A program made the translations under genes and the position numbers. Of a stretch of DNA of 64,000 nt, positions 47,836 through 52,362 are shown in pieces; within the stretch, counting starts at the first letter, position 1; each line of letters begins with the position of its first letter. Source of the DNA: Balamuthia mandrillaris (Eukaryota); contig JAVKOQ020000024.1 in the NCBI GenBank assembly GCA_031835245.2, positions 186,001 to 250,000 on the forward strand. The letters run 5' to 3'. The notes beneath the pieces were generated by a model. The model ran no database searches. It saw only the letters and a list, made by a program, of their open reading frames with translations, and had not been told where the DNA came from.

Positions 47836-48066
47836 TTAGGGGAGATCGGCAAGGCTTCTCTTGGGGGTGGCGTTCTTGCCGGTGCCCAAGGCGCTGGCGC
47901 GCTGCTTGGCGTAGCCTTCGGAGGTGTGAGCGCCCACGCCGGTGCTGTCGTGCGTCGGGGTCCAGACCACTTCCTTCTTGTGCTTGGCGTTGGTCTGCGG
48001 TTGGGCGGCGTCCTGCATCTTCTTCTCGAAGAGGGCGGCCATCTTGCCTGCGCCTTGGTTTGCCAT
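47836..48066 (-). CDS. Small hypothetical protein, 76 aa, single exon
   Basis: ATG-to-TAA ORF MANQGAGKMAALFEKKMQ...KRSLADLP. It is GC-rich with a strong C/G third-position bias, has an A-rich leader and AT-rich flanks. Confidence 0.7.
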   Translation of the reverse strand: MANQGAGKMAALFEKKMQDAAQPQTNAKHKKEVVWTPTHDSTGVGAHTSEGYAKQRASALGTGKNATPKRSLADLP

Positions 48067-48416: not shown

Positions 48417-50705
48417 ATGCAAGCACAAAAAATCATACGTTTGGTCGGGTCTCTCTCTCTCTCTCTCGCTCTTTGGTTACTGCTGACGCTTTTTATAAAC
48501 AGGAACAAGAGAACGGAGTGACGCGCCAAGTGGACGGCGCTTCCTCGCTCGTGTGTTTGGTCGGATGCAAGGACTGTAACTTTACACTTCAAGGCCGATC
48601 CATGAAACTGGTCATCGGTATTATTATCAGTCTCCTTTCTCCTTTGCTCCGGTCCCTCATTCTTCTTCTTCCTTCTTTTAGAGGGATGCGCAAACACAAC
48701 AGTGACCATCGATGGTCCGGTGTTGGTGGGCACCATGGAGGTGATCAACAGCCAAGGCGTCCATGTTCATCTCAACCGACAGGTCCCCACCATCCAGATA
48801 GACAACTGCTCCGAGTGCAGCCTTCACCTCCCTCAGCGAGACAACATTAGAAACGTCTTTGTCTCCAAAGTCACCAAGTTCAGCGTTGTGGAGGAGACTT
48901 CCTCTCGCGTCCATGAACCTCAGTTCACTGAGGGAGAGTACGTCATTTCCTTTTTCTTTGTTTCACTCTTCTTGTCGTTCGTCGTTGCCTCTGCTTCTCC
49001 TTCTTATTCTTGTCTTGCTTCTGCTTGTGCATTCTGACTCCTTTCTTCCCTCTCAGTTGGGAAACGGACCAATACGTCATACGTTTCGAAACAGAGGGCA
49101 GCCTCCTTCTCTGTGACAAGGTCATACGAGAGGGAGCTGGCTATCCCACCACCCAAGCCGAGCACGATCGCGCCGAGGCCAAAGCGGAGTTTCTCAAGTC
49201 TGCGCTTCACAAACTCGTAGACTCTCATTTAGCAGCACGCCCTCCTTCCTCTCCTTCATCGTCGTCTTCTTCTGCGCCTTCGAGACCGCAAGCAAGAAGG
49301 CCGGGACAGCTCATTAGCAATGGAGAAAGAAAGCCTGTGTTTCCTCTTCCTAAACCAAAACAAGTTGCTTCCGAAGAGCCCGAACAACAGAGAGAACAAG
49401 AGCAAGAAACGTTGCAAGCGTCAAACGTTGAACCAGTAGAAGAAGAAAAGCAGAAAGAAGAAGCTAATGGAGAGGGAAGCTCCTCTAGTTTGCTCAACCA
49501 AATCGCAAACTTTAGCATCAACAAGCTGAAACCCACCAAGACAACAGTTCGTCAACAAGTTGCCGTTCTTCCTGAAGAAGGCAACCGTGGTCATCCCAAC
49601 TACGGACACAGCAACAAGGAAGACATCACTGAGTTTTTAGATGACGAGGAAACACTGCAGCAAAAGGTCAAACTGTTAGCTCAGATCTTCAAAAGAAGCA
49701 AATGGCCGGTCATTTATACTGGTGCTGGTGTTTCTACCAGCGCGAAGATTCCTGACTATCGCGGTCCTCAAGGAGCTTGGTTTGTTTCTTCTTCGCCATC
49801 ATCTCTTCCTCTCTATGTCCTTCTCGTTCACTGTACTTACTGTGTAATGGTACCACTGTAGGACACGTTTGGCAGAAGGAAAGGCACCTATAAAAGGAGT
49901 AGAGTTAGAAGCGGCCCAACCAACCCTCTGTCACAACGGTATCAAGAAGCTTGTTGATGACAAGCGTTGCAAGTTCGTGGTTTCCACCAACGTAGATGGC
50001 TTGCATCGCCGCAGCGGTCTAACCACAGAAAACGTACATATTTTCCATACAAGCTGATTGAGCTTCTCCCATTTCACGTGATGGACACAAACTAACCTCT
50101 GCTTCTTTGCACGGAACGAATGCAGTTGTCAGAGTTGCATGGTAATGCATATCTTGAACGATGTTCCAAATGCAAGCAGGAGTACATGAGACCTTTTGAT
50201 TGCACCAAGCAAGGCCAGAGGTTGAATCACATCACCGGTCGTCAGTGTGATGACTGCGGTGGTGACTTGGGTGCGTCTTGATTCTCTCTTTCTTTGAGGT
50301 GTTGCTTGACTAAGTTCTTATTCTTGTAACACTGCAAATAATAATAGTGGATTCCATTATCAACTTTGGAGAAGCGCTCCCTGACGAAGAGTTTGAGAAG
50401 GCACTGCACCACTCTGAAAAGGCGGACCTGACCATCGTGATGGGAAGCAGCATGCGAGTGGAACCAGCTTGCTCGCTCCCGACCAAAACGCTGGACATTG
50501 GCGGCAAATTGATCATTGTCAACCTTCAAAAAACTCCTTGTACGTTCCGCTCTCTCTCTCTCTCTTTCGCCTCTTTTTTCTTCCTCTTTCTCACGCCAAA
50601 AAAAAAACGGTACCTCTCCCAGATGATGACGAAGCCTGGTTGCACATCTATGCGGACTGCGACACGGTGATGCACCACCTGATGCGCCACCTCGGCTATG
50701 AATGA
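48417..50705 (+). CDS. Fusion protein: CAP-C/CARP beta-helix + WH2-like motif + class IV (SIRT6/7-like) sirtuin
   Basis: N-terminal beta-helix repeats (GCKDCNFTL, KLVIEGCANTTVTI, EVINSQGV, VPTIQIDNCSEC). WH2-like LLNQIANFSINKLKPTKT. Sirtuin motifs YTGAGVSTSAKIPDYRGPQG, STNVDGLHRRSG, ELHGN, CxxC...CxxC, IINFGE, GSSMRV and IVNLQKTP. Confidence 0.88.
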
Positions 50706-50857: not shown

Positions 50858-52198
50858 ATGATGATGAAACGCGAACCAACGGATGCAGCAGCGCAGCAGC
50901 CGCCCCAACACCCACCCCCTCCTCACCACCTCCACTTTGGCACCGCCTATGAGGAAATAGACGAAGCCCAGCTGTCGCTGCAGGCGTTGCTGCGCGACAT
51001 GCCGTGGAGCCTCCAGTCCAAGCTCAACAAGCTCAACAACGTGTCCACCGCCGAAGATCTGCTGAAGGTCGGGCGAGGCGCGCTGCAGGCCGCCACAGGG
51101 ATGACCAAGGATGAGATAGCCTCCGTGCTGCACCTCGTCAGCGCCCCCTTGGCCCCAACGCCTCGCACAGCCTTGGATTGGATGCTCTCCCCTTCCTCTG
51201 CTTCTTCCACAGACCAAGCGGCAGCCAAGGGTTTACACCAACGACTCTCTACAGGGTGTCCTCGCCTGGACGAGGTGCTGGGCGGCGGCTTTCTCACGCG
51301 ACAGCTCACGGAGATAGCGGGGGAGAGCGGCAGCGGCAAGACTCAGCTCTGCCTCCAGGCGTGCCTGCAGGTGCAAGCCTCCCTGCAGGAAGGCGGGCTG
51401 GCCGGGGCCGCTCTCTACGTGGCCACCGAACCCAACCAAAAGCTCTACACCACCCGCCTGTTGGGCCTGCTGGAGGAGAACCCCAGGTGGCAGCGCAGCC
51501 AGGTCGTCACGCACACCGCAGGGACGGAGGAGGAGGAGGGCGACCCCTTGCAACACGTCATCTTTTATAACTGCAAGAGCTTGGCGCAGCTGTGGCGGCT
51601 GTTGTTGACGGAGCTGGCCTCGCTGATCCCGGCGCGGCACGTGCGCTTGTTGGTCATTGACTCCATTGCGGCGTTGTACAGGGAGGACTTTGGGACGGAC
51701 CAAACGGCGGAACGGGCCAGAGTCCTGTTCTCGCATGCAGCTCTGCTCAAGCAAATCGCGGACAACTTCAACATGGTGGTGCTTGTGGTCAACCAAGTGT
51801 CAGCCTATTTTCCTTCTTCTTCCTCCACTCTTGGAACAACCTCCTTCTTTGATCTCTCCAGTGCTTCGCCATCTTCATCTTCCAAGGTGGTGCCTGCATT
51901 GGGGTTGGCTTGGTCCAATTGTATCAACGTTCGTCTCTTGTGCAGCAAAACCTCACGTTCTGTCTCCTCAACCAGTTCTTGTTCCTCCTCCTCCTCCTCC
52001 TCGTTCAAACGTCCTCGAAGAGCTGCTTCTAAAGAAGCAGATAATAACGAAGAACAGAACCGGCGGAGAAGCGGTGGAGGGCCAGGTGTAGTCAAGCTAC
52101 GGGAGCTTCGAGTGGTGCATGCTCCTCACCTTCCATCTTCTTCTTCGACCTTCTTTACCATCGAGGCACCAGGCGTCAGAGCTTACCTCGCCGCCTGA
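50858..52198 (+). CDS. XRCC3: RAD51 paralog XRCC3, intronless
   Basis: LSTGCPRLDEVLGGG, Walker A GESGSGKTQ, Walker B LLVIDSIAALYR, VVNQV, PALGLAWSNCINVRL and RVVHAPHLP. Confidence 0.88.
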   Translation: MMMKREPTDAAAQQPPQHPPPPHHLHFGTAYEEIDEAQLSLQALLRDMPWSLQSKLNKLNNVSTAEDLLKVGRGALQAATGMTKDEIASVLHLVSAPLAPTPRTALDWMLSPSSASSTDQAAAKGLHQRLSTGCPRLDEVLGGGFLTRQLTEIAGESGSGKTQLCLQACLQVQASLQEGGLAGAALYVATEPNQKLYTTRLLGLLEENPRWQRSQVVTHTAGTEEEEGDPLQHVIFYNCKSLAQLWRLLLTELASLIPARHVRLLVIDSIAALYREDFGTDQTAERARVLFSHAALLKQIADNFNMVVLVVNQVSAYFPSSSSTLGTTSFFDLSSASPSSSSKVVPALGLAWSNCINVRLLCSKTSRSVSSTSSCSSSSSSSFKRPRRAASKEADNNEEQNRRRSGGGPGVVKLRELRVVHAPHLPSSSSTFFTIEAPGVRAYLAA

Positions 52199-52292
52199 CC
52201 AAAACCATTTTGGGGAGGAGGTTCAACAGCAAAACGAAGAAGAAGCAGAAGATAATGTGCAAAACAAAAAAGAAAAAGAAACAACGAAGTTG

Positions 52293-52362
52293 GGGCGCTG
52301 CCCGGAATCGAACCGGGCTCTCCTGCACCAAAGCAAGCATTTTACCACTGAACTACAGCGCC
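52293..52362 (-). tRNA. tRNA-like gene, probably tRNA-Pro(UGG)-derived, with a 6-nt anticodon loop
   Basis: Folds as GGCGCTG TA GTTC AGTGGTA AAAT G CTTGC TTTGGT GCAGG AGAG CCCGG TTCGATT CCGGG CAGCGCC C. It has a 7-bp acceptor stem, intact A and B boxes, a C discriminator and downstream T-runs. Confidence 0.8.

What the first reader, a model, noticed from the sequence alone, without database searches (positions are those of the whole stretch)
48417..50705. Sirtuin fused to two actin-monomer-binding-type modules (CAP-C beta-helix and WH2)
Seen: a CARP/CAP-C-like beta-helix, a short Pro-rich stretch, a WH2/beta-thymosin-like motif (LLNQIANFSINKLKPTKT, 49490-49543) and a SIRT6/7-like sirtuin. The end of the N-terminal module, the WH2 motif and the sirtuin start share one exon (~49057-49759), so the fusion does not depend on my splicing. 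Known: the CAP C-terminal domain and WH2 motifs bind G-actin, lysine-acetylated actin bound to CAP regulates the formin INF2, and SIRT6/7 are normally chromatin enzymes without such domains. Inference: an NAD+-dependent deacylase or ADP-ribosyltransferase that targets, or is regulated by, G-actin.
Basis: partly seen in the sequence, partly recalled or inferred. Interest (0 to 1): 0.85.

Follow-up and report, generated by a model that had tools for sequence, protein, structure and literature searches.

The report
Actin-tethered sirtuin of amoeboid protists
An amoeba gene joins a SIRT6/7-type enzyme to a short peptide predicted to grip actin monomers and to a domain related to an actin-recycling protein; the combination recurs in other protists, so it is likely an NAD-dependent enzyme that works at the actin cytoskeleton rather than on chromatin.

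Summary
Eight exons (48417-50705) give a 570-aa protein identical to Balamuthia mandrillaris KAL6074483.1; RNA-like contigs splice 3 of its 7 introns. It has three parts: a CAP-type beta-helix with an added tail and helix (Pfam CAP_C 53.8 bits against TBCC 16.9; fold Z 17-18 against 10-12), a beta-thymosin/WH2-type motif, and a class IV sirtuin. All three occur together in 14 of the 150 best profile hits, in two domain orders, and the motif in 27. Named carriers of all three are Pelomyxa, Flabellula and the apusozoan Thecamonas. The motif is predicted to dock on actin at the standard WH2 site (ipSAE 0.87, best control 0.00; likeness to solved complexes may explain the pass), ending beside actin K61, a known acetylation site, 11-19 residues before the enzyme. 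The nucleosome-binding parts of SIRT6/7 are absent. Weaker points: only 2 of 8 mapped CAP actin-contact residues are kept, the CAP tail is extended, and a conserved sirtuin Gln is Thr. Likely an actin-monomer-tethered deacylase; substrate unshown. No paper describing it was found.

The parts
48417..50705 (+). Whole gene, 8 exons, 570 aa (Balamuthia mandrillaris KAL6074483.1, annotated only as 'sirtuin-7')
   Evidence: introns 3, 4 and 6 spliced in RNA-like contigs
48417..48937 (+). Exons 1-3: CAP-type (CARP) right-handed beta-helix core, aa ~4-131; family-invariant K44, E67, T84, D88
   Evidence: Pfam CAP_C 53.8 bits; AF2 strands, pLDDT 89-97 in blocks 11-130; VIA Z 17.4-17.9 to CAP; conservation
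49064..49237 (+). C-terminal hairpin of the CARP domain, conserved R-E-G-x-G-Y-x-T-T tail (aa 157-165) and a long helix (aa 166-193) that CAP lacks
   Evidence: Q138 22 of 23, R157 21 of 23, G161 23 of 23, T164 23 of 23
49238..49489 (+). Disordered Ser/Pro-rich, acidic linker, aa 194-277; not conserved
   Evidence: pLDDT under 50 over 201-276; composition; alignment
49490..49564 (+). Beta-thymosin/WH2-type motif, aa 278-302: amphipathic helix (L278, L279, I282, F285), LKPT (290-293), extended strand
   Evidence: family conservation; predicted complex with actin, ipSAE 0.87 against 0.00
49565..49609 (+). Short flexible tether between the motif and the enzyme, aa 303-317
   Evidence: pLDDT under 50 over 295-315; motif-to-GAG distance 66-81 aa, median 69.5, in 22 of 27 proteins that the anchor pattern caught
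49610..50705 (+). Class IV (SIRT6/7-like) sirtuin domain, aa ~318-570, over exons 4-8: TGAGVS 49718-49735, STNVDGLH 49983-50006 (Thr416 where SIRT6/7 have Gln), catalytic His436 50138-50140, Zn cysteines 444/447/472/475; no C-terminal tail
   Evidence: (SIRT6 Z 34.6, rmsd 1.4, 252 aligned)

Best explanation
This is a class IV sirtuin fused behind a thymosin/WH2-type peptide that is predicted to hold an actin monomer, so the enzyme is likely tethered to G-actin and would likely remove acyl groups, using NAD+, from actin lysines or from a protein bound to that actin. Steps: (1, shown) one spliced gene encodes beta-helix, linker, motif and sirtuin. (2, predicted) the motif's helix sits in the cleft between actin subdomains 1 and 3, LKPT crosses D24/D25, and the following strand runs up to the subdomain 2/4 side. 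(3, inferred) the 11-19 residue tether then holds the enzyme near the pointed-end face, where K50 and K61 lie. (4, inferred) the motif takes the place of the basic nucleosome-binding appendages on which SIRT6 and SIRT7 depend, so the enzyme would be cytoplasmic or go where G-actin goes. (5, weakly inferred) the CAP-related domain is an optional second module, probably for dimer formation or partner binding; it may bind ADP-actin but not by CAP's full set of contacts.
For: Motif conserved in 27 of the 150 best hits and at a near-fixed distance before the enzyme in 26 of them; it is also found after the enzyme in P0081, so it is a movable module and not part of the sirtuin fold; weak Pfam Thymosin hits on this motif in 5 of 40 proteins scanned (E 0.0024-0.055). 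Complex prediction: 0.87, 0.87, 0.86 against best of 3 controls 0.00; runs share at least 63% of contacts; partner pLDDT at least 64; the mark was reached by 51 of 78 solved and 2 of 108 mismatched pairs (eukaryotes 71 of 105 and 2 of 126); contacts reach actin 56-57 and 60-61, next to K62 of the actin used, which is K61 in mammalian numbering. K50 and K61 are among the most often reported actin acetylation sites and lie in subdomain 2 (PMC7555357). Catalytic His kept in 38 of 39 labelled family members. SIRT6's arginine-anchor insert and SIRT7's basic N-terminal domain and DNA-binding lysines are absent (alignments; 10.1101/2024.10.10.617549); the sirtuin domain is net acidic, pI 5.8. A second module related to an actin-binding domain joins the same enzyme at either end.
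Against: No activity, substrate or location was measured. The complex pass may come from likeness to solved thymosin/WH2-actin structures, peptides were not part of the calibration, and the actin was a metagenomic stand-in, not this organism's. No family member reaches Pfam's WH2 or Thymosin cut-off and this protein's copy is among the weaker ones (16.8 bits; range 10.9-35.8). The motif is missing from some relatives that keep the CARP domain (9 of 23 with CARP plus tail among the 150; 3 of these 9 are cut at the N-terminus). Thr replaces the conserved Gln of the xQNxD motif in 36 of 39 labelled members, which may change the chemistry. Only R41 and E48 keep the character of 8 mapped CAP actin contacts. 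In mammals the actin eraser reported is HDAC6, not a sirtuin. Lysine acetylation of amoebal actin was not established in anything read here.
Confidence: 0.5

Rival explanations
1. G-actin is the regulator, not the substrate: the motif senses the monomer pool and holds the sirtuin in the cytoplasm or switches it, and the enzyme acts on other proteins (histones included) when released.
For: Everything that supports actin binding fits this equally. The one studied amoebal class IV sirtuin with an added domain, AcSir2 (YEATS), is mainly nuclear (PMC7376869), and two relatives carry both YEATS and the motif (P0026, P0081).
Against: The near-fixed short distance between motif and enzyme suggests a geometric need; a pure retention signal could sit anywhere. 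Nucleosome-binding parts are absent. No basic run beyond two 4-residue patches inside the enzyme.
Confidence: 0.27
2. Tethered to actin as above, but the reaction is ADP-ribosyl transfer, NAD+ hydrolysis or removal of a long acyl chain rather than deacetylation.
For: Clade-wide Gln-to-Thr change next to the NAD site (36 of 39). SIRT6 has weak deacetylase and reported ADP-ribosyltransferase and long-chain deacylase activity (recalled).
Against: The fold is closest to SIRT6 (Z 34.6) and far from the ADP-ribosylating SirTM class (Z 15-16); the catalytic His is kept. No paper on the effect of this Gln was found (2 irrelevant listings).
Confidence: 0.12
3. A CAP-like actin recharging protein with an enzyme attached: CARP dimer plus WH2 exchange ADP for ATP on actin as in CAP, and the sirtuin couples this to NAD+.
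For: CARP plus WH2 is the unit that does exchange in CAP (PMC5951797; PMC7543520). K365 and D372 of the primary interface are kept as R41 and E48, and as K/R in 12 of 23 and D/E in 17 of 23 relatives; CAP's E-I-A-G tail appears to align with E158-G-A-G161 (the tail match is by eye).
Against: N367, Y351, Y353, K347, Q399 and Y418 are not kept here; the tail, which in CAP ends inside actin's nucleotide-sensing region, runs on into 30 more residues; the order is reversed against CAP; the motif also occurs without the CARP domain (12 of 150, some of them fragments).
Confidence: 0.07
4. The motif is a built-in segment of the enzyme (a lid or self-substrate) and has nothing to do with actin.
For: Near-fixed spacing to the enzyme; lysines in the motif could be self-substrates (inference); no Pfam cut-off reached.
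Against: AF2 leaves it flanked by disorder and not packed on the enzyme; it occurs far after the enzyme in P0081; the conserved positions are those that contact actin in the predicted complex.
Confidence: 0.04

Closest known systems
Class IV sirtuins SIRT6 and SIRT7 (PDB 3pki, 9gmr)
   Same: Fold (Z 34.6, rmsd 1.4 over 252 residues to SIRT6), GAG loop, catalytic His, four Zn cysteines, 42-45% identity.
   Different: No arginine-anchor insert, no basic N-terminal nucleosome-binding domain, no C-terminal tail; acidic; Thr for the conserved Gln; carries a WH2-type motif and a CARP domain.
Beta-thymosin / WH2 actin-monomer-binding motifs (Pfam PF01290, PF02205)
   Same: Helix with hydrophobic face, I-x-x-F, then L-K-x-T-x-T; disordered alone; predicted to use the subdomain 1/3 cleft and D24/D25.
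   Different: Below both Pfam cut-offs; single copy tied to an enzyme; no polyproline tract in this protein; no predicted second helix capping the pointed end within the 47 residues modelled.
CARP domain of cyclase-associated protein CAP/Srv2 (Pfam PF08603; PDB 6fm2, 1k8f, 2b0r)
   Same: Beta-helix plus C-terminal hairpin (Z 17.4-17.9); K365 and D372 equivalents kept; partnered with a WH2-type motif.
   Different: N-terminal here; own invariant residues (K44, R157, T164, T165); tail extended by a long helix; most CAP actin contacts changed; no helical folded domain or oligomerisation coil.
Acanthamoeba AcSir2 (SIR2 + YEATS; PMC7376869) and Sir6f (zf-UBP + SIR2; table in PMC7468528)
   Same: Amoebal class IV sirtuins with an added reader or targeting domain; the same enzyme group carries YEATS, zf-UBP, CRIB and kinase partners.
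   Different: Neither is described with actin-binding modules; AcSir2 is mainly nuclear.
HDAC6 acting on CAP-bound acetyl-actin in INF2 control (PMC7555357)
   Same: Possible same reaction: removal of acetyl from actin K50/K61.
   Different: HDAC6 is Zn-dependent and NAD-independent, with no fused WH2 or CARP domain (architecture recalled); the link here is an analogy.

Membership tests
Class IV sirtuin | Sirtuin fold, closest to SIRT6/7 | tested here: met
Class IV sirtuin | GAG loop, NxD, catalytic His, four Zn cysteines | tested here: met
   T354-S359, N417, D419, H436, C444/447/472/475
Class IV sirtuin | Gln of the xQNxD motif | tested here: not met
   Thr416; Thr in 36 of 39 labelled relatives, Gln in 80 of 104 unlabelled sirtuins. 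The Gln's role in NAD handling is recalled, not from a call.
Class IV sirtuin | NAD+-dependent deacylase activity | not testable with these tools
   needs an assay
SIRT6/SIRT7 chromatin enzymes | Nucleosome-binding appendages (SIRT6 arginine anchor and C-terminal tail; SIRT7 basic N-terminal domain) | tested here: not met
   two residues between the third and fourth cysteine, protein ends 30 aa after the NLQ motif, linker acidic
Beta-thymosin/WH2 | Amphipathic helix followed by LKKT-like motif | tested here: met
   L278, L279, I282, F285, L290-K-P-T293; column conservation in 22 anchored relatives: I 21, L 21, T 18, T 18 (F was the anchor)
Beta-thymosin/WH2 | Reaches the Pfam WH2 or Thymosin cut-off | tested here: not met
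   no hit for P0001; best relative 18 bits against 24.8
Beta-thymosin/WH2 | Binds G-actin in the subdomain 1/3 cleft | tested here: inconclusive
   predicted: ipSAE 0.87 against best control 0.00, standard site; a model, possibly from likeness to solved complexes; binding not measured
CAP CARP domain | Beta-helix with C-terminal hairpin, Pfam CAP_C above cut-off | tested here: met
   53.8 bits; 19 of 23 full CARP-tail relatives reach the cut-off; Z 17.9 over model 3-153
CAP CARP domain | ADP-actin contact residues (K347, Y351, Y353, K365, N367, D372, Q399, Y418) | tested here: not met
   S23, C27, V29, R41, M43, E48, H77, H96: 2 of 8 kept in kind; D446, F447, E449 could not be mapped reliably
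CAP CARP domain | Free C-terminal EIAG tail that enters actin's nucleotide-sensing region | tested here: not met
   tail-like E158-G161 continues into a strand and a 28-residue helix
CAP CARP domain | Strand-exchanged homodimer | not tested
TBCC/RP2 beta-helix | Best sequence and fold match is TBCC or RP2 | tested here: not met
   Pfam TBCC 16.9 below cut-off; Z 10.1-12.1 against 17.4-17.9 for CAP
TBCC/RP2 beta-helix | Arginine finger for GTPase activation | not tested
   no residue-level alignment to RP2 or TBCC was obtained

The most novel reading that the evidence does not exclude
A dedicated NAD+-dependent eraser of actin lysine acylation: an old protist enzyme family (Amoebozoa plus Apusozoa) that clamps one G-actin with a thymosin-type arm and deacylates K50/K61, linking the cell's NAD+ state directly to the actin monomer pool; its CAP-related domain belongs to an undescribed CAP paralog family that giant viruses also carry as a stand-alone protein.
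Probability: 0.35. Interest if true: 0.87.

Novelty: new variant of a known kind. Interest (0 to 1): 0.68.

Why it matters
The enzymes that write and erase actin lysine acetylation are poorly known: the review read here names only HDAC6 as the likely eraser in one setting and leaves the writer open (PMC7555357). A sirtuin with a built-in G-actin arm names a candidate enzyme, a candidate site (K50/K61) and a clean deletion test, and would tie NAD+ metabolism to amoeboid motility or encystation. It would also move class IV sirtuins beyond chromatin. The databases miss the motif (no Pfam call) and misname at least one member. The CARP-tail domain is a widespread family of unknown function (fungi, Apicomplexa, green algae, giant viruses by Atlas and fold leads).

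Tried and rejected
Word-based homolog searches for the N-terminal half found only the query or nothing (P0164); this is low sensitivity, not absence. The Atlas gave no usable feature hit for the motif. The motif found nothing in PDB by sequence. A scan of viral contigs with the family alignment confirmed no relative (55 pattern matches, none passed tblastn). No listed run is on record as an RNA holder; raw RNA runs X5-X7 were read to 3-5%, gave depth under about 3 over the gene (X7 none) and listed no joint; introns 1, 2, 5 and 7 have no transcript support here, and no DNA-run control for the joints was obtained. The single-sequence model of the CARP domain was poor (pLDDT 54) and its Foldseek hits, CAP first, did not reach E 0.001. 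Repeated independent shuffling of the domain order was considered: the best tree mixes the two orders (6-7 changes) but an AU test does not reject a single split (p 0.431), so it is not claimed. TBCC/RP2 identity and two separate genes were rejected. Three paper searches timed out.

Full report
The gene. The window is intron-rich eukaryotic DNA. Eight exons on the + strand (48417-48443, 48503-48617, 48682-48937, 49057-49779, 49862-50033, 50126-50270, 50348-50539, 50623-50705) with seven GT..AG introns give 570 codons and a stop. The product is letter for letter NCBI KAL6074483.1 of Balamuthia mandrillaris, named only 'sirtuin-7'. Contigs of run X1, whose RNA nature is a guess by the tool, skip introns 3, 4 and 6 at the predicted ends; introns 3 and 4 are the ones that join the beta-helix core to exon 4 and exon 4 to the rest of the enzyme. 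No contig spans the whole gene, the other four introns have no transcript support here, and the three raw RNA runs were too thinly read to list joints. Exon 4 alone holds the end of the first domain, the linker, the motif and the start of the sirtuin in one frame, so the fusion does not rest on splicing.

Anatomy. AlphaFold2 on a 32-row alignment gives mean pLDDT 80.8 and pTM 0.50: a beta-helix with hairpin (about aa 4-165), a helix (166-193), disorder (201-276), a short helix (278-283), disorder (295-315) and the sirtuin. The sirtuin is class IV: SIRT7 E 2e-57, SIRT6 E 5e-55 by sequence; SIRT6 Z 34.6, rmsd 1.4 over 252 residues by fold. NAD loop, N417, D419, His436 and four Zn cysteines are present. 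Three differences matter. The SIRT6 arginine-anchor insert is absent, as are SIRT7's basic N-terminal domain and its DNA-binding lysines and any C-terminal tail (alignments; roles from passages of 10.1101/2024.10.10.617549); the domain is net acidic. And the Gln of the xQNxD motif is Thr, as in 36 of 39 labelled relatives, while 80 of 104 unlabelled sirtuins have Gln; the role of that Gln is recalled, and one paper search for it gave nothing useful.

The beta-helix is CAP-type. Pfam CAP_C scores 53.8 bits against TBCC 16.9; 19 of 23 full-length relatives of this domain pass the CAP_C cut-off and one passes TBCC, at a lower score than its CAP_C. Fold search ranks CAP at Z 17.4-17.9 and TBCC/RP2 at 10.1-12.1. 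But it is not CAP's domain unchanged. Mapped through HMMER alignments to mouse CAP1 (6fm2), eight residues whose mutation weakens or abolishes ADP-actin binding (Table 1 of PMC5951797, seen as passages) read S23, C27, V29, R41, M43, E48, H77, H96: two are kept in kind. Across 23 relatives K365 is K/R in 12, D372 is D/E in 17, Y351 is Y/F in 15, and N367 in none of the four commonest letters. The family has its own near-invariant polar set (K44 23 of 23, E67 22, T84 22, D88 20 plus 3 E, Q138 22, R157 21, G161 23, T164 23, T165 22), and CAP's free C-terminal tail runs on here into a strand and a long helix. Atlas and viral fold leads show the same domain standing alone in fungi, Apicomplexa and giant viruses and fused to TPRs in green algae. 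Its binding to actin is open; I put it near 0.3.

The motif. Pfam does not call it in this protein. A profile of four relatives searched against 1.84 billion representatives gave 23,347 hits at E 0.001, of which the best 150 were listed; this ranking favours proteins like the query, so the counts below are neither a census nor unbiased. Among the 150, 27 carry the motif, 35 a CARP-like domain and 14 all three modules: 9 in the order CARP-motif-sirtuin and 5 in the order motif-sirtuin-CARP; 12 have motif and sirtuin without CARP (some are fragments), 9 have full CARP plus tail without a detected motif, 102 have neither (P0061 and P0093 are mis-ordered in that printout and have the CARP part in front). 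Named carriers: Pelomyxa schiedti, Flabellula baltica and Thecamonas trahens with all three; Mastigamoeba balamuthi and Pyxidicula operculata with CARP and sirtuin; a second Balamuthia gene with motif and sirtuin. Most members are unnamed metagenomic proteins. A motif profile built without either Balamuthia copy scores this one 16.8 bits; 3,120 shuffled proteins reach at most 6.0. The consensus is L-L-x-x-I-x-x-F-(N/D)-K-x-x-L-K-x-T-x-T-x-V, 66-81 residues before the NAD loop in the 22 of 27 proteins that the anchor pattern caught. Five of 40 proteins scanned give weak Pfam Thymosin hits there, none at the cut-off. In P0081 the motif lies far behind the enzyme, so it is a movable unit.

Predicted binding. 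An amoeba-type actin was taken from a metagenomic locus (L028, P0178) as a stand-in. With ATP and residues 270-316, three runs scored ipSAE 0.87, 0.87 and 0.86, the best of three controls 0.00; contacts agree to at least 63%, partner pLDDT at least 64; the mark was reached by 51 of 78 solved and 2 of 108 mismatched pairs, and on eukaryotes by 71 of 105 and 2 of 126. The alignments were not used, peptides are outside the calibration, and the pass may reflect likeness to solved thymosin/WH2 complexes. The pose is the standard one: helix residues 277-285 in the cleft (actin 144-149, 168-169, 345-356), L290-K291 on actin 24-26, and 292-302 running along 27-33; the actin interface list also includes 56-57, 60-61, 94, 205 and 208. 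K62 of this actin (K61 in mammalian numbering) is the next residue after the last contacts. The enzyme's ordered part begins 11-19 residues after residue 302. K50 and K61 in subdomain 2 are among the most often reported acetylation sites and control INF2 with CAP, HDAC6 being the likely eraser (PMC7555357, passages and the whole section on actin acetylation). That the tether places the active site on these lysines is inference; it was not modelled.

History. In the 55-row tree of sirtuin domains (100 of the 155 domains left out; LG+G4) the two orders are mixed (6-7 changes), support is weak (18 of 52 branches starred), and one CARP-motif-sirtuin protein (P0004) sits with Gln-type sirtuins under strong support. 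An AU test does not reject a single split between the two orders (p 0.431), so one rearrangement is enough. Presence in several amoebozoan lineages and an apusozoan suggests an old family, or transfer; this was not resolved.

Mechanism. Most likely (0.5) the motif holds G-actin and presents it, or a protein bound to it, to an NAD+-dependent deacylase. Rivals: actin as regulator of an enzyme with other targets (0.27); other chemistry such as ADP-ribosyl transfer (0.12); a CAP-like recharging protein with an enzyme attached (0.07); no actin link (0.04). The first three share the actin tether, which I put at about 0.85-0.9.

Novelty. Six answered paper searches aimed at the architecture (listings and abstract starts only) showed no description of a sirtuin with WH2, thymosin or CAP_C parts. 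Passages of PMC7376869 (its one supplement has no CAP, WH2 or thymosin), PMC7468528 and PMC10113681 describe Acanthamoeba sirtuins with YEATS or none; in the held, cut part of Table 4 of PMC7468528 none of 13 SIR2 rows carries the CAP_C entry and two rows carry it alone (that InterPro number was recalled). Passages of the CAP review PMC7543520 do not mention sirtuins. Subscription papers and supplements of other papers were not seen. One earlier AI note of this scan (e1-7369209) reports the motif-sirtuin fusion in a foraminifer-like protist; it agrees but is not independent evidence, and I did not check that sequence. The parts are known and the combination appears undescribed: a new variant of a known kind, interest 0.68.

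Noticed in passing
P0130 (NCBI KAL6055358.1; cluster members KAL6060801.1, KAL6060802.1): A second Balamuthia gene is motif plus sirtuin only (297 aa, 43% identical over 296 columns) and is named 'ditrans,polycis-polyprenyl diphosphate synthase' by its source, which Pfam does not support.
   Followed up: partly
P0001 aa 1-192; Atlas and viral fold search: The CARP-tail domain resembles stand-alone 200-280 aa proteins (clusters with Apicomplexa, Mucoromycota or Nucleocytoviricota commonest) and TPR fusions in Chlorophyta; fold hits include proteins of Klosneuvirus, Marseillevirus LCMAC, Medusavirus, Pithovirus LCPAC and Orpheovirus (E 1e-6 to 8e-4). Leads only; no sequences were aligned.
   Followed up: partly
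P0024, P0025, P0039, P0042, P0050, P0056, P0068, P0087, P0129; P0053; P0060; P0026, P0081: The same group of sirtuins carries many other partners: zf-UBP (9 of 33 scanned), a CRIB/PBD Rho-binding motif, an LRR-kinase, YEATS. P0005, P0006 and P0053 have a divergent CARP domain and, by eye, a hydrophobic C-terminal anchor.
   Followed up: partly
P0033 aa 351-370; P0081 aa 539-550; P0006 aa 9-22: WH2-type motifs in other positions: a second one at the C-terminus of P0033 (Pfam WH2 E 0.015), one after YEATS in P0081, and a weak one at the N-terminus of P0006 (9 bits).
   Followed up: partly
window 47839-48066 (-): A 76-aa ORF head to head with the sirtuin gene, 350 bases apart, partly covered by an RNA-like contig at depth 34; no Pfam hit above noise and no PDB hit.
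   Followed up: partly
window 50864-52198 (+): Intronless Rad51-family gene (Pfam Rad51 E 3e-26) starting about 160 bases after the sirtuin stop; no link assumed.
   Followed up: partly
window 52292-52362 (-): tRNA-like gene whose anticodon ARAGORN cannot call; the loop looks one base short, so possibly a pseudogene.
   Followed up: no
L059 513-1889 (+): A metagenomic ORF of 459 aa that begins like ubiquitin and ends like actin (by eye); such fusions are known from some rhizarians (recalled).
   Followed up: no
P0123: One member with all three modules has Tyr in place of the catalytic His and a decayed NAD loop: a likely dead enzyme that keeps the motif and the CARP domain.
   Followed up: no
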